DNA of 64,000 nucleotides from an uncultured Bacteroidota bacterium (GCA_903824785.1 CAIJYD010000135.1:1928-65927); one strand, 5' to 3'. Counted from the first letter of the stretch, positions 33,088 to 59,980 are shown. Translations and numbers: made by a program. Notes: generated by a model not told the origin, from the sequence alone.

Positions 33088-33094
33088 AATGGGT

Positions 33095-33102
33095 CAAAGA
33101 TA
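33095..33102 (-). promoter_or_regulatory. Candidate -7 box (TATCTTTG on the minus strand) just upstream of M23 paralog 2
   Basis: The plus strand reads CAAAGATA, only 8 nt upstream of the ATG at 33087. If real, the mRNA would be nearly leaderless. Confidence 0.3.
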
Positions 33103-33175
33103 AACAATTCTGAAAAGAATGAAAATCAGAACTTCCTCAGGAAACAGAAAAAGAGGGAAGTAAATAAAGAAAATA

Positions 33176-37352: not shown

Positions 37353-37461
37353 GCTCTTTCTTTTTGAAATGAACCGGGCATGTGTAATTAAAAACAGAAA
37401 CTTTGGTGAACAGAATCAACATGCGGGAGCCATCCGACCTCTTAAAAATAATTTTGCGCGG

Positions 37462-37932: not shown

Positions 37933-38695
37933 CCTTTTGCTAATCTCTTTCTGCAGTCTGAAAACGGTTCAGGCGCAGGATACAATCCAGTTTCCGCTTA
38001 AGATAAGAGGCGGATTGGAATTATCCGGCCCTGCTATCTATCTGTCTGATAAAAATATTATGAGTTATGAGGGATATGTCTCAGGGGATATAAATGAAAA
38101 GGTTTCTGCTGTTTTTGCAGCCGGCTATCTTAACCGGAAATACTCTCAATCTGACATCGATAATAACTACGAATATCTTACAAGTGGCATGTTTTTCAGG
38201 ACAGGACTTGATTTCAATCTGGTTAACCCAAAGAAATCGATGGGAAGATACTGGGCAGGAATAGGCCTCCGTTATGGAGTGTCTGTATTCAGTTCAGAAA
38301 ATCCCTCAATAAAAAAGGAAAATTACTGGGGAATATCTGCCATGTCTGTTGCTCCTCAGACAAAATGGGGCCATTTTCTGGAGGTATCTCCCGGGGCAAG
38401 AGCTGAAATTTTCAAAAATGTCAGCATCGGATGGAATATCAGTATAAGAAGACTCCTCTATAATGGTGCAGGAGATGATCTGCGACCTGTTTATCTTCCT
38501 GGCTTCGGCAACGGCACAAAAAAATTCAGCTCGGGAGTAGCCTACTACATCGTCTGGAACATTCCTTACAAAAAAATAAGGGTAATTACCAAGGTTGAAG
38601 AACCTGAAACCAGTGATGAAACAGATGGTACCGGTACAACCGGCAGCGGACAGAACTCTCCGGGCATGGTTCAAAAGCCAATAAACAACAGATAA
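37904..38695 (+). CDS. Hypothetical secreted protein, probably an outer-membrane beta-barrel
   Basis: Signal peptide ending TVQAQ. Alternating Gly/aromatic-rich segments. Thr/Gly/Ser-rich C-terminal tail. It overlaps the previous gene by 29 nt. Confidence 0.55.
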   Translation: MLRISGYFISLLLISFCSLKTVQAQDTIQFPLKIRGGLELSGPAIYLSDKNIMSYEGYVSGDINEKVSAVFAAGYLNRKYSQSDIDNNYEYLTSGMFFRTGLDFNLVNPKKSMGRYWAGIGLRYGVSVFSSENPSIKKENYWGISAMSVAPQTKWGHFLEVSPGARAEIFKNVSIGWNISIRRLLYNGAGDDLRPVYLPGFGNGTKKFSSGVAYYIVWNIPYKKIRVITKVEEPETSDETDGTGTTGSGQNSPGMVQKPINNR

Positions 38696-41966: not shown

Positions 41967-43265
41967 ATGGCAAGGATGAATATTATTTTACCTGCAATGG
42001 GTGAAGGAGTTATTGAAGCGACAATTAACAAATGGCTTGTTGCTGAAGGCTCAGGTTTTAAGGAAGATGATCCGCTCGTGGAAGTTGCAACCGATAAAGT
42101 GGATTCTGAAATTCCGGCACCTGCAACCGGTATACTTGTTTCTATTATTGCAAAAGAAGGCTCCGTTGCGAAAGTCGGGGATATAATTGCCCTCATTGAA
42201 AGCGATGTTCTGCAAACCCCTGAGATAACTGAGAAAGTTGAAAAGGAGGTTTTAAGAATCCGTGAGACGATTGATACTGTGCGTCTTGAAAAAAACAAAG
42301 TAGAGAAGTTATCGAATGAGATGAAGAGCAGGACCCCTTCCGGGAAATTCATATCCCCGCTTGTAAGAAGTATTGCCGCAAATGAAGGTGTCAGTTATTC
42401 TGATCTTGATAAAACAACAGGTACCGGAATGGACGGGAGAATAACCAGGGATGATATCTTAAAATTTATTGAAAACAGAAATAAAAGTAAAGAAGCCCTA
42501 CAGACTGCACTGATCCGGAAAGATACGAAGAGCGAAAACGCTCCCCGCGATCATTCTTCCGGAGATGAGATAATCCCAATGGACAGAGTTCGCAAACTCA
42601 TTGCTGACCATATGGTTTTATCAAAAAAAACATCACCTCATGTAACTTCGTTTATTGATGCCGATGTAACAAGGCTTATGAACTGGAGAAATGCCGTTAA
42701 GGATAAATTTCTTGCAACAGAGAAACAAAAGCTGACTCTGACTCCTGTTTTTATTGACGCGGTTGCAAGAGCGCTCTATGAATTTCCCCTTATAAACATC
42801 TCGGTTGAAGGCAATAATATCATTAAGAAAAAGAATATTAACATCGGAATGGCAACTGCTCTTCCCGATGGGAATCTTATAGTTCCTGTAATAAAAAATG
42901 CCAATGAAAAAAACCTTACCGGCATTGCAAAAGCAGTTAACGACCTTGCAGAAAGAGCCAGAAACAATAAATTAAAACCTGACGAAATCACAGGGGGTAC
43001 ATTTACAATTACGAATTTCGGAAGTTATAATAATCTTGCAGGCACTCCGATAATTAATCAGCCTCAGGCAGCCATTCTTGGAACCGGAGTAGTAAGAAAA
43101 ACACCGGTGGTCATAGAAACTCCGGACGGCGATATGATAGCAATCAGGCAGATAATTATTCTCTCATTAAGTTACGATCACAGGGTAATAGACGGTGCCC
43201 TGGCAGGAAGGTTCCTTCAGAAAGTTAAAGAGATCCTTGAAAACTACTCGTCTGATATCGTTTAG
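41967..43265 (+). CDS. 2-oxo-acid dehydrogenase E2 component (dihydrolipoamide acyltransferase); complex not assignable
   Basis: Lipoyl domain (EVATDKVDSEIPAP), E3-binding domain (ISPLVRSIAANEGV) and catalytic domain (LSYDHRVIDGA). No E1 or E3 genes are adjacent. Confidence 0.88.
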   Translation: MARMNIILPAMGEGVIEATINKWLVAEGSGFKEDDPLVEVATDKVDSEIPAPATGILVSIIAKEGSVAKVGDIIALIESDVLQTPEITEKVEKEVLRIRETIDTVRLEKNKVEKLSNEMKSRTPSGKFISPLVRSIAANEGVSYSDLDKTTGTGMDGRITRDDILKFIENRNKSKEALQTALIRKDTKSENAPRDHSSGDEIIPMDRVRKLIADHMVLSKKTSPHVTSFIDADVTRLMNWRNAVKDKFLATEKQKLTLTPVFIDAVARALYEFPLINISVEGNNIIKKKNINIGMATALPDGNLIVPVIKNANEKNLTGIAKAVNDLAERARNNKLKPDEITGGTFTITNFGSYNNLAGTPIINQPQAAILGTGVVRKTPVVIETPDGDMIAIRQIIILSLSYDHRVIDGALAGRFLQKVKEILENYSSDIV

Positions 43266-43569: not shown

Positions 43570-46431
43570 ATGATGAAAAGGTATGTACTAATAACGTTGA
43601 TACTCACAGTATTTATCAATTGCGAGTTGTTTTCCCAGGCGAAAGTTGAAATAAAAAATAATTTTTATGATGCCGAAAGCTGGATTCTGTTTGAAGCATA
43701 TAAAGATGCTTTGCCATTATATCAGCAACTCCTGAAAATCTATCCGAAAAACTCAAATTTCAAATACAGGATAGGGCAATGCTATATAAACACTCCCGGA
43801 GAAAAAGTAAAAGCAATAAGTTATCTGGAAGATGCTGTCAAAAATATTAATCCAAGATACAAGGAGGGAAGATTCAGGGAAAACGGAGCTCCTTACGATG
43901 CCCTGTATTACCTTGCAAATGCCTACAGAATCAATAATCAACTCGAAAAGGCCCTTGATACTTATGAAATCTTCAAAAAAAATCTCAACCCCGAAATTTA
44001 TGATAGTGCAGTAGTCAGGCTTCAGATGCAATCGTGCCTTAATGCTCTGGAGCTTATGAGAAATCCTCTTTATGTCAGGGAGAAAAACCTTGGTAATATG
44101 ATAAATGAAGGAAACTCAGAGTTTTATCCGGTAATTTCCAACAATGAAGATCTCCTGGTTTTTTCAAGAAGTGAGCCATTTTACGATGCTATCCTCTACT
44201 CCACGAAAATTAACGGCCGTTGGTCGGCTCCGACAAATATGAATGAGGTGCTGAAAGTTGACAAAGACCTCTTCCCTACCTCCATTTCAAATGATGGAAA
44301 AACCCTTTATCTATACAGTTCTGCCGATTTCGATGGTATTATTTACACATCCCGGTTTGAAAACGGAACATGGACTCCTCTGTTAAAACTCAATGACCAT
44401 ATAAATACAAAATACTGGGAATCTCACGCAACGATCGCACACGATGATAAAAAACTTTACTTCACCAGTAACAGAAAAGGTACAATCGGAGGACTTGACA
44501 TATATGTTTCAGAAAGAGACTCTACAGGTGACTGGGGTGTTGCAGAAAACCTCGGCCCTGTTATAAATACGATCTACAATGAGGAATCTCCGTTTCTGAC
44601 CAGTGATGATAAAAATTTATTTTTCAGCTCAAGAGGTCATTTTAATATGGGTGGTTACGATATTTTCTATTCCAAAAAGAAGGAAAATAACGAATGGTCA
44701 GTACCTGTCAATGCCGGCTATCCTTTAAATACAACCGATGATGATGTGTTCTTTAAACCACTGAATGAAGGTTATCTGGGGTATATTGCAAGGGAGAATG
44801 CAAATGGCTATGGCAAACAGGATATCTACCATGTAGAGATCTTCAGCAAGGATCATCCGCGAAAATTCCTTGTAAGGGGAATGGTCAAGGTTGCTGACCT
44901 TATGCGCAGTGTAAACGACAGTGTGAGGGTAAGCGCCATGAATATTACAAATCCAAACCAGATGCTGATTGTATATTCCGACCCGAAGACAGGCGAATAT
45001 GAGTTTCAGCTACCTCAGGGCGATTTTCAGTTAACGTATGAAAGTGAAATAGGCGAAAAAATCGTCAAAAATATAGCCTTTTCACTTACAAACCCATCTG
45101 ACAGCATTATCCTTGCGGGAACAGTAATGCCAAAAACCGATTTTGTTGCCGATTTTACGGTTGAAAGCAATAAAACCATTCCATTTACAAAAGGAGACAC
45201 TATTGTCATCCCTATGAAGGTTGAACCGAACTCAATTCTCGTTGCTGAACACTGGACAACAGATGCTCTTGTCTCATCTGAGAATTTCCTGTTGAACAGC
45301 ACAGTTTTTAACTACAAAATGGTTCCCGACAGTTCATATAACAAGATAGTTTTCAAGCTTACCGACAGATTCAGTAATACCACTACTTCAGAAGTATTTA
45401 CGAATATGCAAAGAACCGTTACTGAACAACAGGTGGTAGTGCGTCCGGAATATACCAGGGTAATAGCGAAAAAACAGATCACAGCACTTACTGCAATGCT
45501 TATGAACCGCGGCGGCAACAGACTCTCCAGAATAGCAGCAGATACAACCATCAACAATCAGCAATTCGGGAAAATAGACGACATCATCTCTTATATGAAG
45601 GAGAAAGCTTCAAAGGACAATGTTAGCCCTGAGGAGCTGAACAAAATGGCGCTCAAAGTAGCTGTAATGGATAATGTGCTTACTCAGGCCGCCGTGGATC
45701 TTATAGCCAAAGATACCAGCAGTGATCTGAAAAAAGCGCTTTCAAATCTGGATATTTATAAAGCCAATCTAAAGAGCTGGAGTGATCTGCAGGAATATAT
45801 TTCGAAAAAATCGGGGAGCAGGATCAGCCCGGAAGAGTTGAATAAAATTGCAGAGGTTGCTCTGACAGAAACAGATCCGTCTATTGCACTGCTGAGAGAA
45901 AAAATGCTGGCATTCGGAGATAATTCCAAAACAGGAAAGGCTATCAGTCAATCGGTTGCAACTGCCGATCTGTTTAATGCCAAAACAAAAAGTCAATGGA
46001 TGAATGGCTTCCTGAAAGCAGCGGAATTAAATGGAGTTACAGCCGGCCAGATGACAAATATGCTGGTTCTGATAAGTTCATTACCAAATACTTCTGCTAA
46101 ACAATACCTGAGCGATTTAGCTGAAAGCTCTGATGAGCCTTTGGCATCCTTACTTAAATCACTTAATCTTGAAAAAGAAAGAATTAAAACTTCCAATGAC
46201 CTGATATTGTTTCTTCTAAAAAACAAAGAGAAAGGTAAGTATTCTGAAGAATCAGTTTATCAAGGCATTGCAAGTCTCGCGGCAGCAAAAGATATCAATA
46301 TTGCAACCATTAGCTCAGAATTGAAACCAGTGAAAAAGAGCAATATTTGGATCTTATGGACTCTTGCCGGAATTGCTGTTTTAGTTGCCTTCCTGATTTT
46401 GATGAGAAGAAAGGGGAATGTAAAAAAATAG
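43570..46431 (+). CDS. Envelope protein paralog 1: signal peptide, TPR-like region, TolB-like PD40 repeats, beta-sandwich region, long helical region, C-terminal TM anchor
   Basis: It shares with the next three genes the motifs Y..G.CYLN.PGEK, INTKYWESH, GG(L)D(I/L)Y, GP.INT..NE..PF, GH..MGGYD.F and GYP.N(T/S).DD. Its unique C-terminus contains two SPEELNK(M/I)A repeats and ends in IWILWTLAGIAVLVAFLILMRRKGNVKK. Confidence 0.8.
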   Translation: MMKRYVLITLILTVFINCELFSQAKVEIKNNFYDAESWILFEAYKDALPLYQQLLKIYPKNSNFKYRIGQCYINTPGEKVKAISYLEDAVKNINPRYKEGRFRENGAPYDALYYLANAYRINNQLEKALDTYEIFKKNLNPEIYDSAVVRLQMQSCLNALELMRNPLYVREKNLGNMINEGNSEFYPVISNNEDLLVFSRSEPFYDAILYSTKINGRWSAPTNMNEVLKVDKDLFPTSISNDGKTLYLYSSADFDGIIYTSRFENGTWTPLLKLNDHINTKYWESHATIAHDDKKLYFTSNRKGTIGGLDIYVSERDSTGDWGVAENLGPVINTIYNEESPFLTSDDKNLFFSSRGHFNMGGYDIFYSKKKENNEWSVPVNAGYPLNTTDDDVFFKPLNEGYLGYIARENANGYGKQDIYHVEIFSKDHPRKFLVRGMVKVADLMRSVNDSVRVSAMNITNPNQMLIVYSDPKTGEYEFQLPQGDFQLTYESEIGEKIVKNIAFSLTNPSDSIILAGTVMPKTDFVADFTVESNKTIPFTKGDTIVIPMKVEPNSILVAEHWTTDALVSSENFLLNSTVFNYKMVPDSSYNKIVFKLTDRFSNTTTSEVFTNMQRTVTEQQVVVRPEYTRVIAKKQITALTAMLMNRGGNRLSRIAADTTINNQQFGKIDDIISYMKEKASKDNVSPEELNKMALKVAVMDNVLTQAAVDLIAKDTSSDLKKALSNLDIYKANLKSWSDLQEYISKKSGSRISPEELNKIAEVALTETDPSIALLREKMLAFGDNSKTGKAISQSVATADLFNAKTKSQWMNGFLKAAELNGVTAGQMTNMLVLISSLPNTSAKQYLSDLAESSDEPLASLLKSLNLEKERIKTSNDLILFLLKNKEKGKYSEESVYQGIASLAAAKDINIATISSELKPVKKSNIWILWTLAGIAVLVAFLILMRRKGNVKK

Positions 46432-46561
46432 GCTGAGCAGGAACATGGTTATCAGGGATAAGGCTATATTTGTAAAGATGAAAAGTCATTTCTTTTGTTT
46501 CATTGTACTCTTTGAACTATAAAATAAGAATATCAGTTTAACCTTTTGCCATTATTTTAAT

Positions 46562-46569
46562 TAAATTTG
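46562..46569 (+). promoter_or_regulatory. Candidate -7 box TAAATTTG for paralog 2
   Basis: Exact TAnnTTTG match, 20 nt upstream of the ATG at 46589. Confidence 0.45.
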
Positions 46570-46588
46570 TTTGTCAAAATCTTTTGAT

Positions 46589-47863
46589 ATGAGCAAAAAA
46601 GCTCTCTTACTGCTTATTGTGTTCACTCTTTTCACCTCAGTTTTTGCTCAGGAGAATAAGGATCTTCAGGAAACATTCCTTGAAGCTGAATTCTTTTTAA
46701 TGAATGAAGATTATTCAGATGCGCTTACCTATTACCTGCAGCTGTATGAGAAGCTTCCTGAAAATGAGAACCTGGCTTATTGCATAGGAGTCTGCTATCT
46801 TAACCTTCCGGGGAAAAAGAATCTCTCTGTTGACTTTCTTGAAACAGCCACAAAAAACATGTCGGCAAAACACAAAGAGGGAACTGTTAACCAGATAGCT
46901 GCACCCTACGAGGCTCTCTATGAACTTGGGAAAGCCTATCGTATTAATTTCAAATTCGATAAAGCAAAAGAGACTTTAACCCGTTACTATGGAACGCTCC
47001 TCCCCGATGACCGTGAGAATCTTGATTTTATTAAACATGAAATAGAAATATGCACCACTGCAAAAGATCTTATCGCAAAACCCATTTCGTTTTCAGAGGA
47101 AAATGCAGGGCCGCTCTTTAACGACGAAAAATCAAATTTCAATCCTGTAATTTCAGCCGATGGCAAATCCTTTGCCTTTATGGTCTCTCTTAAATTCTAC
47201 GATGCTGTAATGTTCTCCCGTCTGGTTAACGGAAGATGGACCGTTCCGGTTAACATTACTCCTGAAATCCAGTCAGATGGAGATTTTTACATCTCTTGTC
47301 TCTCTGCCGATGGAAAAACACTGTTCCTTTCTAAAGATGATAATTTTAACAGTGATATTTTTTCCAGTTCATTTAATGGTACCAGCTGGTCAAAGACAGT
47401 TAAGCTAAATAAAAATATAAATACAAAATACTGGGAATCACATTGTTTTATGAATGAAGCCGGTGACAGGATTGTTTTCGCCTCTGACAGACCGGGTGGT
47501 TTCGGAGGGCTCGACCTTTATACTTCTGTTAAAGTAAACGGAGACTGGGGAGCAGCAGTAAACCTGGGACCGGAAATAAACACACCATTTAATGAGGACA
47601 GGCCATTCCTGATTAACAATGGGAAGATCCTGTTCTTCAGCTCTCAGGGGCATGAAAATATTGGCGGATATGATCTGTTCAGATCGGATCTTCAGTCAAA
47701 TGCCTTATGGAGTGAACCCATAAACTTAGGATATCCGCTTAATACTCCGGATGATAATATCTTCTTTATGCCGTTTAATGATGGCAAATCAGGTTATTGT
47801 TCAGTATTCAAACCCACAGGCGGTTTCGGAAAAGAAGATATTTACAAGATAACCCTGAAATAA
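46589..47863 (+). CDS. Envelope protein paralog 2: signal peptide, TPR-like region and PD40 repeats only (minimal core)
   Basis: It has the same core motifs as paralog 1 (CYLNLPGKK, INTKYWESH, GGLDLY, GPEINTPFNEDRPF, GHENIGGYDLF, GYPLNTPDD). I used the ATG at 46589 (MSKKALLLLIVFTLFTSVFAQ). Confidence 0.8.
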   Translation: MSKKALLLLIVFTLFTSVFAQENKDLQETFLEAEFFLMNEDYSDALTYYLQLYEKLPENENLAYCIGVCYLNLPGKKNLSVDFLETATKNMSAKHKEGTVNQIAAPYEALYELGKAYRINFKFDKAKETLTRYYGTLLPDDRENLDFIKHEIEICTTAKDLIAKPISFSEENAGPLFNDEKSNFNPVISADGKSFAFMVSLKFYDAVMFSRLVNGRWTVPVNITPEIQSDGDFYISCLSADGKTLFLSKDDNFNSDIFSSSFNGTSWSKTVKLNKNINTKYWESHCFMNEAGDRIVFASDRPGGFGGLDLYTSVKVNGDWGAAVNLGPEINTPFNEDRPFLINNGKILFFSSQGHENIGGYDLFRSDLQSNALWSEPINLGYPLNTPDDNIFFMPFNDGKSGYCSVFKPTGGFGKEDIYKITLK

Positions 47864-47903
47864 AAATTGACAGAATTTTTTTCAATTAATGTAGAAAAAT
47901 AAT

Positions 47904-47911
47904 TACATTTG
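47904..47911 (+). promoter_or_regulatory. Candidate -7 box TACATTTG for paralog 3
   Basis: Exact TAnnTTTG match. It is 27 nt upstream of the ATG at 47938 and only 6 nt before the ATG at 47917, which favours 47938 as the start. Confidence 0.45.
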
Positions 47912-47937
47912 TTTTGATGGGAATATTCAAAGTGAAA

Positions 47938-49899
47938 ATGATCTTTTTAAAACTGCAGTTTTTTATCCTGCTTCTCTTGCCTGCAATTGCTTCAGCCCAA
48001 TTAGCCGACGAGAGAAGAAAGATATTTGCACAGGCCGAGTCATATTACCTGTATGAAGAATATGAACTGGCCAATCAGCTATATCTTCTGCTGGAAGATC
48101 CTGACAATTCAAATATTAAATACAAAATAGGTACCTGTTATCTTAATATCCCGGGTGAAAAGGAAAAATCGATACCTTATTTACAGGAGGCGGTAAAAAC
48201 AGCAACCTATGATTCAAAACCAGAATCATTTAAAGAAAAAAGAGCTCCTCTTGATGCCTATTTCTCTCTGGCAAAAGCTTATATGATCAATAATGAACTT
48301 GAAAAAGGGCTGAATACACTTGTTACCTTCAATAAACTTGCACTGGAAACAAAATCCAAAGGAGGAATGAAAAACCTCGAATATATTGAACAACAGATTA
48401 AGGCATGCCGTAATGCCATTCAGTTTCGGGAGACCCCTGTTGTTTTCAATAAATCAAAACTTGGAGGCGATTTCAGCCAGGGTTCAATAAACATAAATCC
48501 TGCTATAAGTTTTGATGGGAATACAATTGTTTATACAGAAACCAGAGGTGAAGTTAATGTTATTTTCTTTTCAAGGAAGGAAAGAGGAAAATGGCAAACC
48601 CCCATTGAAATAACCGCAGAGATAAATGCCGGAGAAGATTGCTCATCATGTTCCCTTAACAAGGACGGGACGGAGCTGTTTCTATATAAAACAGATAATT
48701 ATGACGGCTCATTATATTCATCACAATATGAAAACGGAGCCTGGTCGCCTGTTAAAAAACTCAATAAAAATATTAATACAAAATTTTACGAATCCCATGC
48801 CTCAATTTCGGCTGACGGAAAAAAACTTTACTTTACCAGCAACAGGGATGGAGGCCAGGGTAACCTCGATATTTATGTTTCAGAAAAAGATGGGTCCGGT
48901 GACTGGGGCTCAGCTGTAAACCTTGGAGCTGCTGTAAATACACCATTTAATGAGGATACACCATTCATTACAAAGAATGATTCGGTACTCTATTTTTCTT
49001 CCGAAGGACATAGTTCAATGGGGGGGTTTGATAATTTCATGAGTCAGAAAACCGGATCGGGATGGAAAACCCCTGCCAACCTTGGCTATCCTATTAATTC
49101 TACTGACGATGATAAATTCTATCAGCCTCTAAACAATGGAATTAATGCCTACTATTCGATGATAACAGAATATAAAAAACGAGACATATTCTATCTGACA
49201 ATGGGAGGAGCTGAAGAGAAACAATTTTTTGAAATAAAAGGAAAATTCAGCCTTAACGACACTACTCTCACCTTTGATGAAAGCTATTCAATTCACCTTC
49301 TTGATGGAAATACAGGGGATACACTCGACGTCGGTTTCCCAAACAAATACACCGGCCTCTATAGCTTTTCTGTTACCCCCGGAAAATTCAGGTTAGTTTA
49401 TATCGGGATAGGATATTTCACTCAGAATATTGATACTGTAGTTTTGAAAGATAACCAGACCCTGGCAATAAATATTGATGTAAATCTTATACGGGATGTA
49501 ACTGTTCCCAGAATAAAAGAGCCTCCTCCACCTCCGCCACCTCCACTGCCTCCGGTCGTTTATGAAAAATTAAATCTTTCAGACATACCGGTTGTTGCAT
49601 CTATTGACACCAGTATTCTGATCAAAAACGTGAATCTCTCTGATGTCAGCGACGTTAACATAAAAGACTCTGATATTCTTTATTATACTGTTCAGGTGAT
49701 TGCGCTTCGCTCTTCAGTGGATGTAAGCTTCTTTAAATATATTACTGATATGAAAGTGATGTATAGCGAGTCTGATAAATTTTACCGCTATACCACCGGT
49801 GTGTTTGCTACCCGAGAGGAGGCCAACACCTTGAAATTAGAATTAATAATGAAAGGATATCCGGAAGAAATCTTTATCAAGAAAGTCTCGAAACAATGA
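47938..49899 (+). CDS. Envelope protein paralog 3: TPR-like region, PD40 repeats, beta-sandwich, poly-proline linker, C-terminal SPOR-like domain
   Basis: The core motifs match paralogs 1 and 2. PPPPPPPPLPP lies at nt 49522-49554. The C-terminus YYTVQVIALRS...FYRYTTGVFATREEANTLKLELIMKGYPEEIFI fits the SPOR pattern. Confidence 0.8.
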   Translation: MIFLKLQFFILLLLPAIASAQLADERRKIFAQAESYYLYEEYELANQLYLLLEDPDNSNIKYKIGTCYLNIPGEKEKSIPYLQEAVKTATYDSKPESFKEKRAPLDAYFSLAKAYMINNELEKGLNTLVTFNKLALETKSKGGMKNLEYIEQQIKACRNAIQFRETPVVFNKSKLGGDFSQGSININPAISFDGNTIVYTETRGEVNVIFFSRKERGKWQTPIEITAEINAGEDCSSCSLNKDGTELFLYKTDNYDGSLYSSQYENGAWSPVKKLNKNINTKFYESHASISADGKKLYFTSNRDGGQGNLDIYVSEKDGSGDWGSAVNLGAAVNTPFNEDTPFITKNDSVLYFSSEGHSSMGGFDNFMSQKTGSGWKTPANLGYPINSTDDDKFYQPLNNGINAYYSMITEYKKRDIFYLTMGGAEEKQFFEIKGKFSLNDTTLTFDESYSIHLLDGNTGDTLDVGFPNKYTGLYSFSVTPGKFRLVYIGIGYFTQNIDTVVLKDNQTLAINIDVNLIRDVTVPRIKEPPPPPPPPLPPVVYEKLNLSDIPVVASIDTSILIKNVNLSDVSDVNIKDSDILYYTVQVIALRSSVDVSFFKYITDMKVMYSESDKFYRYTTGVFATREEANTLKLELIMKGYPEEIFIKKVSKQ

Positions 49900-52538
49900 T
49901 AGCTGCGTTCAGGAAAATAGTTATTTTTTCTGTCCTTATTTTAAACTTTCATTCTCTCTCCTCACAGATTCTTTCCAAAAAAGAATTTATAAAAACTGTA
50001 CAGGAGGCAGATGTATTCTATTATTATAATGATGATTACGAAACGGCTTCCCATCTGTATGAAAAACTTTTTAACGTTTATCCCGATAATTGCAACCTTT
50101 CTGCAAAACTTGGAATATGCTATTTAAACATCGAGGGGAAAAAAGCTGATGCCCTACGACTTCTGGAAAAGGCAAAAGGAAATGTGGTAGCCAATGATAA
50201 TGAGTACATTGAATATGGCGAAAAAGCACCATTGGACACCTATCTCTACCTTGCAATTGCTTATCATCAGAATGATAGTCTCAATAAAGCCATTTCCCTT
50301 TTTTATGAAGCCAAAAGAAAACTGGGGAAAACTGAAGTTTTCCGTGAGGATTATATTGACAACCAGATAAGAGCCTGCAGGTACTCCATTGAAATGCAAA
50401 AAAAACCCTTGCCTGTCGTAGCTACCCTCTTCACACCCTGGCTCGACAAATATCCGGGAGCTTCAAATCCGGTAATATCAAAAAACGATTCAGTATTTGT
50501 TTTCACGCAACAGGAAAATGATACAACCCGCATATTATGTTCCTATAAATCAGGCGTATGGAAATTGCCTTCAGATATAACAGCCCAGCTTGGATCGAAA
50601 AATAAGATATACTCCAACTCTATTACAGGTGATGGAAAACTGTTAATAATTTACATGGACGAAAATGGCGACGGGAATCTCTATTTCAGTCAGAGAAAAG
50701 ACTCGGTATGGACCAGGTTAAAAAGTTTAGGTAAGAATATTAATACTATCTATTGGGAAGCTCACGGCTATATTACACCGGATGGGAAAACACTCATATT
50801 TGCAAGCAACAGGCCCGGAGGCGAAGGTGAATTAGATCTCTGGATCTCTGAAAAAGATAATAATGGTTTATGGAAAAAACCTCTCAATTGCGGCAAAATA
50901 ATTAATACCCCCTATAATGAAAACACCCCGTTCTATGACCCGGAGACAAATGAAATGCTCTTCAGTTCAGCAGGACATCCGGGTATGGGAGGATATGATA
51001 TTTTCCGGACTAAAAATATAAATGGAAACTGGTCGCATCCAATCGGATTACCTTATGCTCTGAATAATACAACAGATAATACCTTCTTTATTCCAAATGG
51101 CAATTCTGCAGGATTTATATCCAGCTTCTTTGATGTGAAAACCGGTGCACTGAATATCTATTCAATTGTCAAAGAAGACCTTGCAAATAAGAATATTCTT
51201 GTCAAAGGCTATATTTCCCTTCAGGATGGCATGCCGGTAAATCCCAGTCTTATCAACATACAACTATATGACCAGAAGAGCGGTGCCCCTCTGAAGAACA
51301 TACCTCTTGCTGAGAAATCATCGTTCAAATTCGAAATAAAACCCGGTGACTTCCGCATCCTGGTAAGCCATATCGGTTATAAGACAGATACCATTAATCT
51401 GAATATGAGAAATGATACACTGGCATCCAACAAATTGATGAGAGATACAGCATTTTTTAATTTTGAAGTCAAACCGGGTGATTATATGCTTCTTACAAGC
51501 CACACCGGATATAAGACCGATACTTTTAATCTGAACATAACTGTTAATTCCACAGGCAACTATCTCCCTGTCAATGCCGCACTGATCCCCGATAAGGTAT
51601 TCTCAGGTGAATTCCTGTCAGTTAAGAATATCCTCTTTGAATTCGACAAATCTGAACTGACAGATAAAGCTATATCTACCCTGGAAGTTATTAAGTCTGT
51701 TCTTGTAAACAATCCTGAATTAAAAATTGAAATTGCTGGTTATACCGATGAAAAAGGAAGTAACTGGTATAATATGTACCTTTCCGACAAAAGAGCTCAG
51801 ACTGCTATCAACTACCTTTCTGCTTCAGGAATCTCAGCGTCTAGACTCATAAAGAAAGCTTTTGGAAAGACAAATTTCATTTCGATTAATACCAATCCTG
51901 ACGGTACAGATAACCCTGAAGGAAGAAAATATAACAGGAGAGTCACATTTGGGATCATTGATCCGCACACCGGGGTAGTAATAAGGCAGGAAACTTATAC
52001 TCCGGAGCATCTGAGACAACCCTCCTCAATAAAATATTATATCGTTCTTGCTAAATCAGAAAAAAATCTCGCTACTTCTTATTTCAAAGAACTTGAAATG
52101 GAAGAGCTGCAGTTTATGAAATCAGTTAAGCTCGATTCAATTTCCATATACACCCTTGGGGAATTTTATAATAAGGCTGATGCTTTAAAATATCTTGTTT
52201 ATGCCCAGGAAAAAGGGTTCAAAGATGCTTATATCGTTACCCAGTATGAAATCAATAATACGTCAAAAACTTTAATGGAACCGGAACTGAAAAGCAGGAA
52301 AATCAGTGTGACAGGTTATACAATTCAGCTTAAGTCGTCAAAACAACAACTTAGTATGAATATGTTCAAAGATGTTGCAGGGGTAAAGGAAATAGCCTCT
52401 TCCGACGGATATTACAGATATATTTATGGGGATTATAAATCGTATATTAAAGCAAAAGAAGAACTTACAAAAATTCATGAATCAGGATTTAAAGATGCAT
52501 TTATAAGAGATTCCGGCCCCCTGTTAAATAATAGATAA
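49896..52538 (+). CDS. Envelope protein paralog 4: TPR-like region, PD40 repeats, two beta-sandwich repeats, OmpA/Pal-like peptidoglycan-binding domain, two SPOR-like domains
   Basis: The core motifs match the other paralogs. OmpA_C domain at about 51612-51956 (ILFEFDKSELTD...IAGYTDEKGSNWYNMYLSDKRAQ...NRRVTF). SPOR-like regions at about 52030-52250 and 52313-52515. The ATGA start overlaps the stop of paralog 3. Confidence 0.85.
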   Translation: MIAAFRKIVIFSVLILNFHSLSSQILSKKEFIKTVQEADVFYYYNDDYETASHLYEKLFNVYPDNCNLSAKLGICYLNIEGKKADALRLLEKAKGNVVANDNEYIEYGEKAPLDTYLYLAIAYHQNDSLNKAISLFYEAKRKLGKTEVFREDYIDNQIRACRYSIEMQKKPLPVVATLFTPWLDKYPGASNPVISKNDSVFVFTQQENDTTRILCSYKSGVWKLPSDITAQLGSKNKIYSNSITGDGKLLIIYMDENGDGNLYFSQRKDSVWTRLKSLGKNINTIYWEAHGYITPDGKTLIFASNRPGGEGELDLWISEKDNNGLWKKPLNCGKIINTPYNENTPFYDPETNEMLFSSAGHPGMGGYDIFRTKNINGNWSHPIGLPYALNNTTDNTFFIPNGNSAGFISSFFDVKTGALNIYSIVKEDLANKNILVKGYISLQDGMPVNPSLINIQLYDQKSGAPLKNIPLAEKSSFKFEIKPGDFRILVSHIGYKTDTINLNMRNDTLASNKLMRDTAFFNFEVKPGDYMLLTSHTGYKTDTFNLNITVNSTGNYLPVNAALIPDKVFSGEFLSVKNILFEFDKSELTDKAISTLEVIKSVLVNNPELKIEIAGYTDEKGSNWYNMYLSDKRAQTAINYLSASGISASRLIKKAFGKTNFISINTNPDGTDNPEGRKYNRRVTFGIIDPHTGVVIRQETYTPEHLRQPSSIKYYIVLAKSEKNLATSYFKELEMEELQFMKSVKLDSISIYTLGEFYNKADALKYLVYAQEKGFKDAYIVTQYEINNTSKTLMEPELKSRKISVTGYTIQLKSSKQQLSMNMFKDVAGVKEIASSDGYYRYIYGDYKSYIKAKEELTKIHESGFKDAFIRDSGPLLNNR

Positions 52539-52553
52539 TAAAGTGTGCTCATT

Positions 52554-53075
52554 ATGAAATCTAAAGAAATCAAGCTTCGTGCTCTTGAGCCGGAAGATCT
52601 GGAACTTCTTTATATCTGGGAAAATAACGATTCCTACTGGATGCTCAGCAATACCGTTACTCCATTTTCAAAGTATACTCTCAAACGATATCTTGAAAAT
52701 TCACATAAGAATATCTATGAAACAGGCCAGTTAAGGCTTATGATAGATCATATTCAGGATAAGATAACCATAGGAACAATTGATATTTTTGATTTTGACC
52801 CGTTCCATAAAAGAGCCGGACTGGGAATACTTATCGCCAACGAGGCCTACAGGAGAAAAGGGTATGCTTCCATGGCACTGAGTTCAATTATCAGTTATTG
52901 TTTCAAAACACTTCAGCTGCATCAGCTATTCTGCAACATCCTGGCAACCAACTGTGAAAGCATTGATCTGTTTAAAAAACAGGGGTTTATCCAGACCGGC
53001 GTGAAGAAGGAGTGGGTAAAGACATCTGATGGCTATCTGGACGAATCAATCTACCAGCTTATCAATAAGGATTAA
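52554..53075 (+). CDS. GNAT-family N-acetyltransferase (RimJ/RimL-like)
   Basis: LRALEPEDLELLYIWEN...GILIANEAYRRKGYASMAL...A.N..S..LF.K.GF pattern. I used the ATG at 52554. Confidence 0.8.
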   Translation: MKSKEIKLRALEPEDLELLYIWENNDSYWMLSNTVTPFSKYTLKRYLENSHKNIYETGQLRLMIDHIQDKITIGTIDIFDFDPFHKRAGLGILIANEAYRRKGYASMALSSIISYCFKTLQLHQLFCNILATNCESIDLFKKQGFIQTGVKKEWVKTSDGYLDESIYQLINKD

Positions 53076-55319: not shown

Positions 55320-55408
55320 GGAGAGATGGCAGAGTGGTCGAATGCGGCGGTCTCGAAAACCGTTGTTCGCCTTCCGGCGAACCGGGGGTTCGAATCCCTT
55401 TCTCTCCG
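55320..55408 (+). tRNA. tRNA-Ser (anticodon CGA)
   Basis: Manual fold. Acceptor GGAGAGA/TCTCTCC. 3-bp D stem. Anticodon stem GCGGT/ACCGT with loop CTCGAAA (CGA). Long variable arm TTCGCC-ttcc-GGCGAA. T loop GGTTCGAATCC. Discriminator G. CCA is not encoded. Confidence 0.9.
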
Positions 55409-55421
55409 CAACACCTGAACT

Positions 55422-55455
55422 AACCATCCGCCAAAAGGCGGATGGTTTTGTTTTT
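55422..55455 (+). terminator. Rho-independent terminator after tRNA-Ser
   Basis: 11-bp perfect stem AACCATCCGCC / GGCGGATGGTT with loop AAAA, followed by TTGTTTTT. Confidence 0.8.
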
Positions 55456-55519
55456 AAATGACCGAATAAAACAAAACATACCGCGTAGCGGGTTTGTTCA
55501 GGTGTTGCAAGGTTTCACC

Positions 55520-56797
55520 TTACAACAGTATCCCGGCAAGGGAAGCAGAAATATATGACGCCATTGTTCCGCAAAGCATCGCTTTAAACCCAAGGCTGGC
55601 AAGATCGGCTTTTCGACCCGGGACAAGCACGCCAATTCCTCCAAGTTGTATAGCTATTGAACTGAAATTGGCAAATCCGCAGAGGGCAAAGCTTGCAATT
55701 ACAACAGATTTTGCGCTCAGGGCACCTTGCTGTATCATAGGGGAGAGATCGGAATATGCAACAAACTCGTTTATCACCATTTTTGTCCCCATAAGTGACC
55801 CCACATTAAGGGATTCAGCCGGGGGCACTCCCATAAGTATTGCAAAAAGGCTAAAGAACGCTCCAACAACATCTTTGAGACGAAGATTATCAACATTCAG
55901 ACTCAAGGCATCAAGGGAGACTCCTATCCATGACAGAAAATGGCCGAAGTATCCTAAAATTGCATCCACAAAGGCTATAAGGGCAATTACACCGATGAGC
56001 ATGGCAATAACGTTGATGGAGATCTTCATTCCATCACTTGCCCCATGCGAGATGGCGTCCATAATATTTGAATGTTCCTTTTTAACCTCCAGTTTTATTA
56101 TCCCTTTTGTTTCTGACTCTTCAGTCTCGGGAAAAACAATTTTCGAAATGACCAATGCCCCCGGAGCAGCCATAAGGCTTGCTGCAAGCAGATATGATGC
56201 AGGTACTCCCATAGAAATATAAACAGCCATTACACCACCTGCGATACAGGCCATACTGCCGGTCATCGATGCAAGCAGCTCCGATTTTGTCATTCCTGAA
56301 AGATATGGACGTATCATTATCTGGGCTTCCACCTGACCAACAAAAGCGCTGGCAACATTCGACAATGCTTCACTCCCGCTGACTCTCATTGCCCAATGTA
56401 CAAAGCGTGCAATTACTGCAATTACCCTTTGCATCAGTCCAACATGGTAAGCCATTGCAACCAGTACGCAGACAAAGATTATTGTCGGAAGAAGAATGAA
56501 TATAAAGACACCGCTTTTTACAATACCTTCGGGCAGGATTTGGGTTATTCTTGTAAGGTCGCCGAAGACAAACAGTCCTCCCTCCTTTGAAAAATCCAAA
56601 AGTTTATTAATTGCTTTTCCGAGCCAGTAGAAAATATCCTGACCAATAGGAACTTTAAGTATAAAAATTGCTAAGGTGATCTGCAAAATCAACCCTGTAA
56701 TTACAAGACGGTAATTAATCTTCTTCCGGTTGTTCGACCACAAATAAGCCAGTCCGAGGATAACAATAATCCCTATAACGCCAGTAAATCTTCCCAT
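55520..56797 (-). CDS. NupC/NupG-family concentrative nucleoside transporter
   Basis: 425 aa multi-pass membrane protein with a CNT-like N-terminus (GIIVILGLAYLWSNNRKKINYRLV) and conserved C-terminal half (NEFVAY...GFANFSSI). Confidence 0.85.
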   Translation of the reverse strand: MGRFTGVIGIIVILGLAYLWSNNRKKINYRLVITGLILQITLAIFILKVPIGQDIFYWLGKAINKLLDFSKEGGLFVFGDLTRITQILPEGIVKSGVFIFILLPTIIFVCVLVAMAYHVGLMQRVIAVIARFVHWAMRVSGSEALSNVASAFVGQVEAQIMIRPYLSGMTKSELLASMTGSMACIAGGVMAVYISMGVPASYLLAASLMAAPGALVISKIVFPETEESETKGIIKLEVKKEHSNIMDAISHGASDGMKISINVIAMLIGVIALIAFVDAILGYFGHFLSWIGVSLDALSLNVDNLRLKDVVGAFFSLFAILMGVPPAESLNVGSLMGTKMVINEFVAYSDLSPMIQQGALSAKSVVIASFALCGFANFSSIAIQLGGIGVLVPGRKADLASLGFKAMLCGTMASYISASLAGILL

Positions 56798-59961: not shown

Positions 59962-59980
59962 TGTATTCTGTCGCAACATT

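What the first reader, a model, noticed from the sequence alone, without database searches (positions are those of the whole stretch)
43570..52538. Array of four paralogous TPR + TolB-like PD40 proteins whose C-termini differ (inner-membrane anchor, none, SPOR, OmpA + 2 SPOR): a Tol-Pal/CpoB-like domain set
Seen in the sequence: four consecutive same-strand genes share a ~420 aa core. The core is a signal peptide, a TPR-like segment (Y..A...Y..L....P.N.N..Y..G.CYLN.PGEK) and PD40-type repeats (INTKYWESH, GGLDIY, GP.INT..NE..PF, GH..MGGYD.F, GYP.NT.DD).

The C-termini differ systematically:
- Paralog 1 adds about 530 aa, ending in a single TM helix plus a basic tail. With an N-terminal signal peptide, this implies an inner-membrane C-terminal anchor.
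- Paralog 2 is the bare core.
- Paralog 3 adds a beta-sandwich, a P8LPP linker and a SPOR-like domain.
- Paralog 4 adds two beta-sandwich repeats, an OmpA/Pal-type domain and two SPOR-like domains.

Paralogs 3 and 4 overlap by ATGA. Paralogs 2 and 3 each have their own TAnnTTTG box.

Established knowledge: in Proteobacteria, TolB is a PD40-type beta-propeller, Pal is an OmpA-like peptidoglycan binder and CpoB/YbgF is a TPR protein. SPOR domains bind denuded septal glycan.

Inference: these domain types are fused here into single polypeptides and then diversified by anchor. The array could form a trans-envelope, division-site peptidoglycan-tethering set, functionally analogous to Tol-Pal. Single TPR-PD40-OmpA proteins are commonly annotated in Bacteroidota. 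The four-member graded array is what looks unusual.
Basis: partly seen in the sequence, partly recalled or inferred. Interest (0 to 1): 0.68.

Follow-up and report, generated by a model that had tools for sequence, protein, structure and literature searches.

The report
Conserved four-gene PorE-like envelope array
Four neighbouring genes in an uncultured freshwater Bacteroidales bacterium encode copies of one periplasmic "head" (TPR plus beta-propeller, as in the secretion and cell-wall protein PorE), each with a different way of attaching to the cell envelope; the set is conserved across many uncultured relatives and has not been described as a unit.

Summary
Four same-strand genes (43570-52538) share a core of about 420 aa (signal peptide, TPR, PD40 propeller) at 32-41% identity.

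- P1 adds two beta-sandwiches, about four 70-aa helical repeats, and a TM helix with a basic tail.
- P2 is the bare core.
- P3 adds a sandwich and one SPOR domain.
- P4 adds a sandwich, an OmpA_C domain closest to PorE's, one divergent SPOR-like module and one clear SPOR domain.

Two corrections: P4's "two sandwiches" is one sandwich with a strain-variable 44-aa partial duplication, and P3's polyproline tract is strain-specific.

The array is not strain-specific. The same order and flanking genes occur in 40 GTDB species representatives and in much more divergent metagenomic lineages, and the four orthogroups are each well supported. Anchor modules vary in copy number.

None of the four is a lipoprotein, all score far below the PorE and CHU_0125 cutoffs, and no Tol motor or porP gene is adjacent, although the window does carry T9SS genes.

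The "CpoB-TolB-Pal fusion" idea was already published for PorE. The conserved anchor-graded array is what is new. Its function as a multi-layer envelope tether with a septal bias is inferred, not shown.

The parts
43570..46431 (+). P1 gene (953 aa): signal peptide, TPR, PD40 propeller, two beta-sandwiches, helical-repeat spacer, C-terminal TM helix and basic tail
   Evidence: ORF; Pfam PD40 and TPR; more than 100 full-length orthologs at 62-68% identity; orthogroup bootstrap 90/100
43570..43635 (+). P1 type-I signal peptide (cleavage before the invariant Q23)
   Evidence: The ...FSQ/ISQ motif is conserved in 36 orthologs; a Cys is present in only 3 of 36; Q23 is invariant across all four orthogroups
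43681..44844 (+). P1 copy of the shared head: TPR-like region (aa ~38-160) and PD40 beta-propeller (aa ~170-425)
   Evidence: Pfam TPR_19/TPR_6 and PD40; aligns to the NCBIfam PorE and CHU_0125 models; 24 invariant core positions, mostly in the propeller
44866..45402 (+). P1 two beta-sandwich (Ig/CRD-like) domains, aa ~433-503 and ~545-611
   Evidence: AF2 strands; Foldseek finds only generic tandem Ig/FN3 pairs
45469..46320 (+). P1 all-alpha repeat domain (aa ~634-917), about four units of ~70 aa; no Pfam or PDB match
   Evidence: AF2 helices with pLDDT 80-92; self-hhalign off-diagonals at offsets of ~69 and ~138 residues; no Pfam family; copy number expanded 3-fold or more in P0122, P0123, P0244 and P0299
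46345..46428 (+). P1 C-terminal TM helix plus polybasic tail (IWILWTLAGIAVLVAFLILM-RRKGNVKK)
   Evidence: Hydropathy; conserved in orthologs and in distant homologs; no LPXTG, PEP or GG sorting motif is visible in the alignment consensus
46562..46569 (+). TAAATTTG, a Bacteroidota -7-type promoter box 27 nt upstream of the P2 ATG
   Evidence: Present at a fixed distance in 32/34 loci; sequence verified
46589..47863 (+). P2 gene (424 aa from the ATG; the ORF opens at TTG 46571): signal peptide plus bare TPR-propeller head, ending directly after the propeller
   Evidence: ORF; Pfam PD40; orthologs are uniformly about 424 aa at 65-80% identity; orthogroup bootstrap 100
47904..47911 (+). TACATTTG promoter-type box 13 nt upstream of the P3 ATG
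   Evidence: Present at a fixed distance in 33/35 loci; the intergenic length is fixed at about 50-53 nt
47917..49899 (+). P3 gene (660 aa from the ATG): head, beta-sandwich, linker, SPOR
   Evidence: ORF; PD40 at 68 bits; CarboxypepD_reg sub-threshold, E = 0.014; orthogroup bootstrap 100
49522..49554 (+). P3 polyproline tract (P8LPP), a strain-specific insertion in the linker
   Evidence: Absent from orthologs: the median Pro count in the linker is 3 against 12 here
49678..49896 (+). P3 C-terminal SPOR domain (aa ~589-661)
   Evidence: Pfam SPOR hit in 29/35 orthologs, best E = 2.5e-5; hhalign to P4 SPORb 97%, E = 1e-10; the beta-1 Gln is invariant
49896..52538 (+). P4 gene (880 aa), start overlapping the P3 stop (ATGA): head, sandwich, OmpA_C, SPOR-like module, SPOR
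   Evidence: ORF; junction; more than 100 full-length orthologs at 54-68% identity; orthogroup bootstrap 99
51195..51584 (+). P4 CRD-like beta-sandwich, containing a 44-aa partial internal duplication (aa 471-514, nt 51306-51437)
   Evidence: Pfam CarbopepD_reg_2 and CarboxypepD_reg sub-threshold; the duplication is absent in the orthologs of 831-839 aa; the insert has pLDDT below 50
51633..51905 (+). [quoted passage not shown]
   Evidence: Pfam OmpA 77.6 bits; the best structural match is the PorE C-terminal domain 6TOP, E = 1e-8; the three residues are present and invariant in 40 orthologs
52035..52241 (+). P4 SPORa: divergent SPOR-like module lacking the beta-1 Gln
   Evidence: hhalign to SPORb 95.6%, E = 1e-8; beta-alpha-beta-beta-alpha-beta model, block-mean pLDDT mostly 76-87; no Pfam SPOR hit in 31 orthologs; the top PDB hit is 1x60 but at E = 0.58
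52317..52511 (+). P4 SPORb: SPOR domain
   Evidence: Pfam SPOR 22.7 bits against a cutoff of 21; profile hit to the CwlC SPOR structure 1x60, E = 5e-4; model pLDDT about 83-93
52545..53075 (+). GNAT (Acetyltransf_3-type) acetyltransferase, always found directly downstream; probably co-transcribed, with an unknown functional link
   Evidence: NCBIfam PseH/SpeG/RimJ-like hits below cutoff; present after the array in 36 of 41 loci and in L045-L047, overlapping P4 in L045 and L047
43409..43434 (+). Terminator-like hairpin after the upstream E2 gene, suggesting that P1 starts a new transcription unit
   Evidence: Consensus scan only; 11 sites were found against 7.4 expected, so this is weak evidence

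Best explanation
**What is shown**
- This is an old, conserved, operon-like array of four PorE/CHU_0125-family paralogs.
- All four are exported by Sec with type-I signal peptides and are not lipidated.
- All carry the same TPR + PD40-propeller head. Each carries a different envelope anchor:
  - P1 is held in the inner membrane by a C-terminal TM helix with a cytoplasmic basic tail. A helical-repeat spacer of variable length and two Ig-like domains sit between the anchor and the head.
  - P2 has no anchor and is soluble in the periplasm.
  - P3 has one SPOR domain.
  - P4 has a PorE-type OmpA_C domain with an intact D/N/R peptide-stem binding triad, plus one degenerate and one canonical SPOR module.

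**What is inferred**
- The heads recognise a common partner, or one another. PorE's propeller binds the outer-membrane barrel PorP, so the most likely partner is an outer-membrane protein.
- The set would then couple that partner to three layers of the envelope at once: the inner membrane (P1), peptide-stem peptidoglycan (P4) and denuded glycan strands (P3 and P4).
- SPOR domains bind denuded glycans, which are enriched at constriction sites. P3 and P4 should therefore concentrate at septa and other sites of amidase activity.
- This would give a passive (motor-less) envelope tether or organiser with a bias towards the division site.
- P2 would act as an unanchored competitor or adaptor.

The outcome resembles Tol-Pal. 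The mechanism does not, and the array is not a member of that system.
For: **Anatomy**
- Paralogy and domains.
- Signal peptides without a conserved Cys, and an invariant +1 Gln.
- TM helix and basic tail conserved from close orthologs to homologs with 21% identity in the C-terminal half.
- Helical repeats whose copy number varies from about 4 to 12 or more, always ending in a TM helix.
- OmpA_C closest to PorE 6TOP, with an invariant D618/N626/R633 triad.
- SPOR assignments.

**Selection on the set**
- Four orthogroups with bootstrap 90-100.
- Same gene order in 40 species representatives.
- Same order and flanks in L045 and L047, and a five-gene variant in L046 that still has the TM-type, bare-type and SPOR-type members.
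- P3/P4 start-stop overlap in essentially all loci, and promoter-type boxes conserved upstream of P2 and P3.

**Context**
- The window encodes GldJ, a PorP/SprF-like barrel, PorU and PorV.
- PorE's WD40 domain probably contacts PorP, and its OmpA_C domain is essential: PMC12773672.
- PorE has been proposed as a compact CpoB-TolB-Pal: PMC12204202.
- Deleting CHU_0125 causes outer-membrane integrity defects and a 6-fold increase in OMVs: PMC5891637.
- SPOR domains bind denuded septal glycans: Yahashiri 2015, as cited in PMC12772221.
- Short metatranscriptome contigs at 90-98% identity map onto P1, P2 and P3.
Against: - No protein in the array has an outer-membrane anchor, and no porP-like, tolQRA or divisome gene is adjacent. 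The outer-membrane link is therefore an assumption.
- Head-to-head and head-to-partner binding were not tested.
- P4 has been cleanly deleted in 3-4 species, with the GNAT gene then abutting P3. The OmpA_C member is thus dispensable or has moved elsewhere.
- The CHU_0125 mutant showed no division defect (PMC5891637).
- SPOR domains also occur in non-division proteins, so septal localisation is a prediction only.
- All carriers are uncultured, so there are no phenotypes.
- The transcript evidence consists of a few short contigs from a related strain, and DNA carry-over cannot be excluded.
Confidence: 0.5

Rival explanations
1. These are dedicated T9SS accessories. The four proteins are PorE paralogs that fix PorP-like barrels, and the type-B cargo attached to them, to the cell wall and inner membrane. 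The array would serve secretion or gliding rather than general envelope tethering or division.
For: - The best NCBIfam hits include T9SS_PorE for all four.
- The OmpA_C domain is closest to PorE 6TOP.
- The window carries gldJ, porP/sprF-like, porU and porV genes.
- In F. johnsoniae, porE-like genes pair with porP-like genes to anchor non-mobile cargo (PMC9143113).
Against: - Scores are 116-173 bits against a PorE cutoff of 600.
- None of the four is a lipoprotein.
- No porP-like gene is adjacent in any locus; the flanks are RecR, GT2, E2, GNAT and RlmN.
- The T9SS cluster lies 21 kb away and is not part of the conserved synteny.
- SPOR domains and an inner-membrane anchor have no known role in PorE function.
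Confidence: 0.2
2. This is a peptidoglycan-remodelling hub. The TPR-propeller heads would recruit or regulate PG synthases or hydrolases, as the TPR proteins CpoB, LbcA/WthA and NlpI do. The anchors would place that regulation at the inner membrane, on stem peptides and on denuded septal glycan.
For: - The TPR module and SPOR targeting are present.
- CpoB-like TPR is noted in PorE (PMC12204202).
- TPR hub proteins that coordinate PG turnover are widespread, including in Bacteroidota (PMC12772221).
- The window is rich in envelope genes: MurF, two M23 peptidases and YkuD L,D-transpeptidases.
Against: - No PG enzyme gene is part of the conserved synteny.
- The only experimentally supported ligand of this head type is the outer-membrane barrel PorP (PMC12773672).
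- TPR Pfam scores are weak, and absent for P3.
Confidence: 0.15
3. There is no joint function. The genes are tandem duplicates that diverged to independent roles and remain adjacent only through inertia.
For: - P4 can be lost (L015, L025, L032, L042) or duplicated (L007).
- P2 and P3 have their own promoter-type boxes.
- L046 has a different membership.
Against: - Order and spacing are retained from close orthologs down to lineages with 21-32% identity in P1's C-terminal half.
- The P3-P4 overlap is near-universal.
- The four orthogroups are each strongly supported.
- TM-type, bare-type and SPOR-type members co-occur in every complete locus seen.
Confidence: 0.1

Closest known systems
PorE (PG1058/PGN_1296) of Porphyromonas gingivalis, a T9SS component
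   Same: - P4 has the same TPR, beta-propeller, CRD-like sandwich and OmpA_C order.
- P4's OmpA_C is structurally closest to PorE's (6TOP, E = 1e-8) and keeps the PG-binding residues.
- The organism has a T9SS.
   Different: - PorE is an outer-membrane lipoprotein; none of the four proteins here is.
- Scores are 116-173 bits against a cutoff of 600.
- P1-P3 lack OmpA_C.
- P3 and P4 add SPOR modules, and P1 adds a helical spacer and an inner-membrane anchor.
- There are four clustered paralogs instead of one gene.
- No porP gene is adjacent.
CHU_0125 family 'OmpA-like outer membrane integrity protein' (Cytophaga hutchinsonii)
   Same: - It is the best-scoring NCBIfam model for all four proteins (130-207 bits).
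- It has the TPR + PD40 + OmpA_C architecture.
- Its mutant phenotype (outer-membrane leakiness, more OMVs) is the kind of function inferred here (PMC5891637).
   Different: - Scores are far below the 620-bit cutoff.
- CHU_0125 is annotated as a Pal-like lipoprotein and is a single gene.
- No SPOR or inner-membrane-anchored relatives have been described for it.
Tol-Pal system (TolQRA, TolB, Pal, CpoB) of Proteobacteria
   Same: - The domain types match: PD40 propeller (TolB), OmpA_C (Pal) and TPR (CpoB).
- P1 is an inner-membrane-anchored protein with an extended helical region, like TolA in concept.
- P2 is a soluble propeller protein, like TolB in concept.
- The predicted site of action is septal.
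   Different: - There is no TolQR/ExbBD motor in the window.
- There is no lipidated Pal.
- The TolB N-terminal domain is absent (TolB model 19.5 and 23.9 bits for P2 and P3, no hit for P1 or P4, against a cutoff of 343).
- P1's topology is the reverse of TolA's, with a C-terminal rather than an N-terminal anchor.
- The domains are fused rather than being separate proteins.
SPOR-domain division proteins (FtsN, DamX, DedD, RlpA; CwlC)
   Same: - P3 and P4 end in SPOR domains. Support comes from Pfam, a profile hit to 1x60, and the beta-alpha-beta-beta-alpha-beta topology.
- The beta-1 Gln is conserved.
   Different: - Known SPOR proteins are bitopic inner-membrane proteins or lipoproteins with other N-terminal modules.
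- A SPOR domain attached to a PorE-type head was not found in the literature searched.
GspB/OutB-type scaffolds that tie an outer-membrane machine to both the inner membrane and peptidoglycan
   Same: The concept is the same: anchoring one outer-membrane-associated partner to several envelope layers (title and abstract seen).
   Different: - It is an unrelated protein family from a different secretion system.
- It is a single protein, not a set of paralogs.

Membership tests
PorE (NCBIfam NF052230, T9SS_PorE) | Full-length match at or above the curated cutoff (600 bits) | tested here: not met
   P1 115.7, P2 124.3, P3 122.1 and P4 172.6 bits
PorE | Four-domain order: TPR, WD40/PD40 propeller, CRD, OmpA_C | tested here: met
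   Met by P4 only. P1-P3 lack OmpA_C.
PorE | N-terminal lipoprotein signal (outer-membrane lipid anchor) | tested here: not met
   All four have type-I signal peptides ending in S/A-Q. There is no conserved Cys in 31-36 orthologs of each.
PorE | Peptidoglycan-binding residues in OmpA_C (Asp and Asn in PorE; Asp and Arg in OmpA-like domains) | tested here: met
   P4 has D618, N626 and R633, invariant in 40 orthologs. This is sequence-level evidence only; binding was not assayed.
PorE | Binds PorP and is required for T9SS cargo secretion | not testable with these tools
   A porP/sprF-like gene exists at 21399-22367, but no interaction or phenotype data exist.
CHU_0125 family (NCBIfam NF053607) | Full-length match at or above the curated cutoff (620 bits) | tested here: not met
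   P1 147, P2 130.4, P3 134.2 and P4 207.5 bits
Tol-Pal system | TolQ-TolR-TolA motor and transducer genes with tolB and pal | tested here: not met
   No MotA/ExbB, ExbD or TonB/TolA families were found among the window ORFs annotated or among the genes flanking the array in L001-L003, L045 and L047. The rest of the genome was not examined.
Tol-Pal system | TolB: N-terminal alpha/beta domain plus six-bladed propeller (TIGR02800, cutoff 343) | tested here: not met
   Only the propeller matches weakly: P2 19.5 and P3 23.9 bits. The N-terminal region is TPR.
Tol-Pal system | Pal: lipoprotein with an OmpA_C domain | tested here: not met
   P4's OmpA_C matches the Pal model at 64 bits against a cutoff of 125, and there is no lipobox.
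SPOR domain (PF05036) | Match at or above the gathering score (21 bits) | tested here: met
   P4 aa ~808-872 scores 22.7 bits when scanned alone. Its profile hits the 1x60 SPOR structure at E = 5e-4.
SPOR domain (PF05036) | The same, for the P3 C-terminus | tested here: inconclusive
   The window protein scores 18-18.7 bits, below 21. However, 29/35 orthologs hit SPOR at E <= 0.01, and hhalign to P4 SPORb gives 97%.
SPOR domain (PF05036) | The same, for the first P4 module (aa ~714-782) | tested here: not met
   0/31 orthologs hit SPOR at E <= 0.1. Remote homology only: hhalign 95.6%, an HMM of SPORb hits it at 3.6e-9, and the topology is SPOR-like. It lacks the beta-1 Gln.
OmpA family (PF00691) | Match at or above the gathering score (27.2 bits) | tested here: met
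   P4 scores 77.6 bits over aa 580-670.
PD40 / WD40-like beta-propeller repeat (PF07676) | Match at or above the gathering score (20.9 bits) | tested here: met
   P1 50.3, P2 50.7, P3 68.2 and P4 40.2 bits

The most novel reading that the evidence does not exclude
The array is a Bacteroidota counterpart of Tol-Pal built from one duplicated PorE-like gene.
- P1 would play the TolA-like part. It is inner-membrane anchored, and a helical-repeat "ruler" sets its reach across the periplasm.
- P2 would play the TolB-like part, as a soluble head that competes for or mobilises partners.
- P3 and P4 would play the Pal-like part, binding the wall and being drawn to the septum by SPOR domains.

Together they would couple outer-membrane constriction to septal peptidoglycan processing in a phylum where no pal gene has been found. 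This would directly support the 2025 proposal that PorE-type proteins traffic to the septum.
Probability: 0.15. Interest if true: 0.8.

Novelty: new variant of a known kind. Interest (0 to 1): 0.55.

Why it matters
**The open question**
- No pal gene was found in the Bacteroidetes genomes surveyed in the paper read here (PMC12204202), so how they tie the outer membrane to the wall and constrict it at division is open.
- PorE-type proteins were recently proposed to fill that role, with no evidence for septal targeting.

**What this array adds**
- Evolution has attached SPOR domains, the classic septal-peptidoglycan readers, and a spacer-plus-inner-membrane anchor to the same PorE-type head.
- The resulting set has been kept together in order across dozens of species and deep divergence.

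**Testable predictions**
- The SPOR modules should localise to septa.
- The heads should share a partner.
- The length of P1's spacer should matter.

**New modules described here**
- P1's helical repeat of about 70 aa is a previously unannotated module found in only 172 of 1.84 billion protein clusters.
- P3 represents a PorE-like class that has no OmpA_C domain.

**Limitation**
- All carriers found are uncultured, so the first tests must be heterologous.

Tried and rejected
1. **P1's tail as a sorting signal.** One ortholog is auto-annotated as "LPXTG-motif cell wall-anchored". I rejected a sortase, exosortase or rhombosortase signal because no LPXTG, PEP or GG motif appears in the consensus (...K...LWILW.LLGAGL....WKRKK).
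2. **Lipoproteins.** The window's P1 reads FINC, which resembles a lipobox. I rejected this because a Cys is present in only 3 of 36 orthologs and the S-Q cleavage motif is conserved.
3. **A second complete CRD domain in P4.** Rejected. It is a 44-aa partial duplication that most orthologs lack, and it is modelled poorly.
4. **A known fold for P1's helical domain.**
   - Pfam gives nothing.
   - Foldseek against the PDB gives no hit at E <= 1e-3. However, the whole two-part model was searched, so a helical-only match could have been masked.
5. **A solved structure for the bare head (P2).** Sequence search of the PDB found none.
6. **Sigma-70 promoter and terminator scan.** The counts are at or near chance and the sigma-70 model is inappropriate for Bacteroidota. 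I used conservation of TAnnTTTG instead.
7. **A cultured carrier.** Source names for distant P1-type proteins gave only "Bacteroidota bacterium" MAGs.
8. **RNA evidence for co-transcription.** Only one metatranscriptome was found, with a few short contigs from a related strain. That is too sparse to define transcription units.
9. **Rfam scan.** Nothing was found in the array.
10. **Canonical porE, pal or tolB elsewhere in the same genome.** This is not possible with the capped collection scans.

Full report
**Observation**

The window has four consecutive + strand ORFs at the reported coordinates:
- P1: 43570-46431, 953 aa.
- P2: 46571-47863. The probable ATG is at 46589, giving 424 aa.
- P3: 47914-49899. 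The probable ATG is at 47917.
- P4: 49896-52538, 880 aa.

They are clear paralogs. BLASTP identity is 32-41% over 409-541 aligned positions, with E-values from 1e-67 to 2e-116. A core HMM finds only these four ORFs in the 64-kb window.

Pfam places PD40 above threshold in all four. TPR models hit P1, P2 and P4, above threshold only in P1, and do not hit P3. OmpA scores 77.6 bits in P4 only. The P3 stop and the P4 start overlap as ATGA.

**Which family**

For all four proteins the best NCBIfam models are the CHU_0125-type "OmpA-like outer membrane integrity protein" and T9SS PorE. The scores are 116-207 bits against cutoffs of 600-620.

PorE is described as an outer-membrane lipoprotein with the order TPR, WD40, CRD, OmpA_C. 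Its OmpA_C domain is essential and its WD40 domain probably contacts PorP (PMC12773672; PMC7192894).

P4 has that domain order. Its modelled OmpA_C domain is closest to the PorE C-terminal crystal structure 6TOP (E = 1e-8). It also keeps D618, N626 and R633, which are invariant in 40 orthologs.

There is one clear difference. All four paralogs have type-I signal peptides ending in ...S/A-Q, with no conserved cysteine in 31-36 orthologs of each. The Gln is invariant across all orthogroups. From my own knowledge, this fits the Bacteroidota "Q-rule" for signal peptidase I substrates. These are therefore relatives of PorE and CHU_0125, not members of those families by the curated criteria.

**The C-terminal modules**

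*P1*
- An AF2 model of aa 430-953 has mean pLDDT 71, with 80-92 in the helical part. It shows two beta-sandwiches, an all-alpha domain of about 290 residues, and a long terminal helix.
- That helix coincides with the hydrophobic stretch at aa ~926-946, which is followed by RRKGNVKK.
- With a cleaved N-terminal signal peptide and a positive C-terminal tail, the predicted topology puts the bulk of the protein in the periplasm and the C-terminus in the cytoplasm.
- The helical domain has no Pfam match and no significant PDB fold match.
- It is internally repetitive, with self-matches at offsets of about 69 and 138 residues.
- Homologs show that it is a spacer of variable length. P0122 and P0123 carry the whole module three times. 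P0244 and P0299 carry many more units. All of them end in a TM helix and a polybasic tail.

*P2*
- It stops directly after the propeller.

*P3*
- It has a sub-threshold CRD-like sandwich, a linker and a SPOR domain.
- 29 of 35 orthologs hit Pfam SPOR and nothing else.
- Its profile aligns to P4's last module at 97% probability.
- The P8LPP tract is an insertion specific to this strain.

*P4*
- Its sandwich contains a 44-aa partial duplication that most orthologs lack and that is modelled with low confidence.
- After OmpA_C come two beta-alpha-beta-beta-alpha-beta modules.
- The last one is a bona fide SPOR domain: 22.7 bits against a cutoff of 21, and a profile hit to CwlC 1x60 at E = 5e-4.
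- The first is a divergent copy. hhalign gives 95.6% to the second, but no Pfam hit occurs in 31 orthologs, and it lacks the conserved beta-1 Gln.

**Conservation**

P4 and P1 each have more than 100 full-length orthologs in uncultured Bacteroidales and Bacteroidia, at 54-68% and 62-68% identity respectively.

A scan of GTDB species representatives with the P1-specific C-terminal half found 40 species. All are MAGs from peat, fen, soil or sediment. The order P1-P2-P3-P4 holds in essentially all of them. The exceptions are contig ends and frameshifted assemblies.

Each paralog is 51-80% identical to its own orthologs and 30-48% identical to the other paralogs. The flanks are also conserved: RecR, GT2 and a lone E2 acyltransferase upstream, and a GNAT and an RlmN-like gene downstream.

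An exhaustive search found P1's C-terminal half in only 172 of 1.84 billion representative clusters. These include full-length proteins of about 950 aa at 21-32% identity. Their loci are informative:
- L045 and L047 have the same four genes, modules and flanks.
- L046 has a five-gene variant: TM-type, two OmpA-only members, bare plus sandwich, and SPOR-type. The same GNAT gene follows it.

A neighbour-joining tree of the core gives four orthogroups with bootstrap 90, 100, 100 and 99. The deeper branching order is unresolved. The duplications therefore long predate these lineages.

The anchors are modular:
- P4 is cleanly deleted in L015, L025 and L032, and reduced to a remnant in L042.
- P4 is duplicated in L007.
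- P4 carries a third SPOR domain in L020 and L041.

**Expression signals**

TAnnTTTG boxes lie 27 nt upstream of P2 in 32/34 loci and 13 nt upstream of P3 in 33/35. They are essentially absent upstream of P4 (2/31), whose start overlaps or abuts the P3 stop in nearly every locus.

The GNAT gene begins 6-15 nt after P4 here and overlaps P4 in L045 and L047.

The genome occurs in lake and freshwater metagenomes. One lake metatranscriptome has short contigs at 90-98% identity on P1, P2 and P3. That is weak evidence for transcription in a close relative.

**Context**

The window carries a T9SS cluster about 21 kb upstream: murF, gldJ, a porP/sprF-like gene, porU and porV. It also carries two tandem M23 peptidases and a YkuD L,D-transpeptidase.

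No TolQRA or ExbBD genes were found among the window ORFs annotated. No porP-like gene is adjacent to the array in any locus examined.

**Interpretation**

What is shown is the anatomy: one head, four anchors, kept together over deep time.

The mechanism is inferred. The heads would bind a common partner, or one another. PorE's propeller probably contacts the outer-membrane barrel PorP, which makes an outer-membrane protein the best guess for the partner. The anchors would tie that partner to three places:
- the inner membrane, through P1 and its length-variable spacer;
- stem peptides, through P4's OmpA_C domain;
- denuded glycans, through the SPOR domains of P3 and P4.

SPOR domains bind denuded glycan enriched at division sites (Yahashiri 2015, cited in PMC12772221). 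P3 and P4 are therefore predicted to concentrate at septa.

The idea that PorE is a compact CpoB-TolB-Pal that might traffic to the septum is already published (PMC12204202). What the array adds is natural fusions that point the same way. It is not a Tol-Pal system: there is no motor, no lipidated Pal and no TolB N-terminal domain.

The rival readings are a T9SS-specific anchor set, a PG-remodelling hub, and independent paralogs. None is excluded. I put about 0.5 on the multi-layer tether model.

**Novelty and score**

I found no paper linking PorE-like proteins with SPOR domains, or describing such an array. Databases name these proteins hypothetical, TPR, PD40 or OmpA family.

I rate the finding as a new variant of a known kind, with interest 0.55. 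It is a well-supported, conserved and previously undescribed arrangement that makes a recent hypothesis testable. It is limited by the absence of any functional data and by all carriers being uncultured.

Noticed in passing
window 18458-27144: A T9SS and gliding cluster: murF (-), gldJ (19812-21317, -), a porP/sprF-like barrel (21399-22367, -), porU sortase (22475-25897, +) and porV (25936-27144, +). It shows the organism has a T9SS and a PorP-type protein, the kind of partner PorE is known to bind.
   Followed up: partly
window 52545-53075: A GNAT (Acetyltransf_3) gene always lies directly after the array, including in the divergent loci L045-L047, where it overlaps or closely follows the last array gene. 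It directly abuts P3 where P4 is deleted. It has no signal peptide, and its link to the array is unexplained.
   Followed up: partly
window 32116-34144 (- strand): Two tandem paralogous M23 (LytM-type) peptidase genes of 322-323 aa. They could be amidase activators or endopeptidases relevant to septal peptidoglycan.
   Followed up: no
P0122 and P0123 (homologs of P1): Close relatives of P1 (55-61% identity) are 1,505-1,570 aa because the whole helical module of about 290 aa is present in three tandem copies before the TM anchor. This is a striking length polymorphism of the periplasmic spacer.
   Followed up: partly
P0316 (2,108 aa): The same ~70-aa helical repeat (GNLK.FL..IDL...GI....EL..YL..NA..NGYTE.DV) occurs about 20 times in a protein with an unrelated N-terminus and no PorE-like head. 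The repeat is therefore a module in its own right, with no Pfam family.
   Followed up: no
L007 14959-20272; L020 and L041 P4 genes: L007 carries two tandem P4-type genes (837 and 879 aa). The P4 proteins of L020 and L041 have a third SPOR module (928-933 aa).
   Followed up: partly
L046 2101-12698: A five-gene variant of the array in a distant lineage: TM-type, two OmpA_C-only PorE-like proteins, a bare head with a sandwich, and a SPOR-type protein. Here the OmpA_C members group with or near the P2 clade rather than with P4, which hints that the bare P2 arose by loss of OmpA_C.
   Followed up: partly
window 41967-43265: A lone 2-oxoacid dehydrogenase E2 (lipoyl acyltransferase) gene with no adjacent E1 or E3 genes is the conserved upstream neighbour of the array in nearly all loci.
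   Followed up: no
window 37369-38695: Two overlapping ORFs (187 and 263 aa) have no NCBIfam match. The syntenic genes in L045 carry DUF6452 and DUF6048.
   Followed up: no
window 58849-59979 (- strand): The ORF at 58849-59979 carries a YkuD L,D-transpeptidase domain. The 269-aa ORF beside it (58030-58839) was not scanned, but its size matches the second gene of the YkuD pairs (269/370 and 279/370 aa) that lie near the array in L003 and L002.
   Followed up: no
window 55320-56222: A tRNA-Ser(CGA) lies at 55320-55409. The 242-aa ORF at 55494-56222 (+) lies antisense within the nupC-like gene (55520-56797, -) and is probably spurious.
   Followed up: no
window 43618-43623 (P1 aa 17-18): The window's P1 has a lipobox-like FINC within its signal peptide. 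Orthologs lack it: a Cys is present in only 3 of 36. This is a possible trap for automatic lipoprotein prediction.
   Followed up: yes
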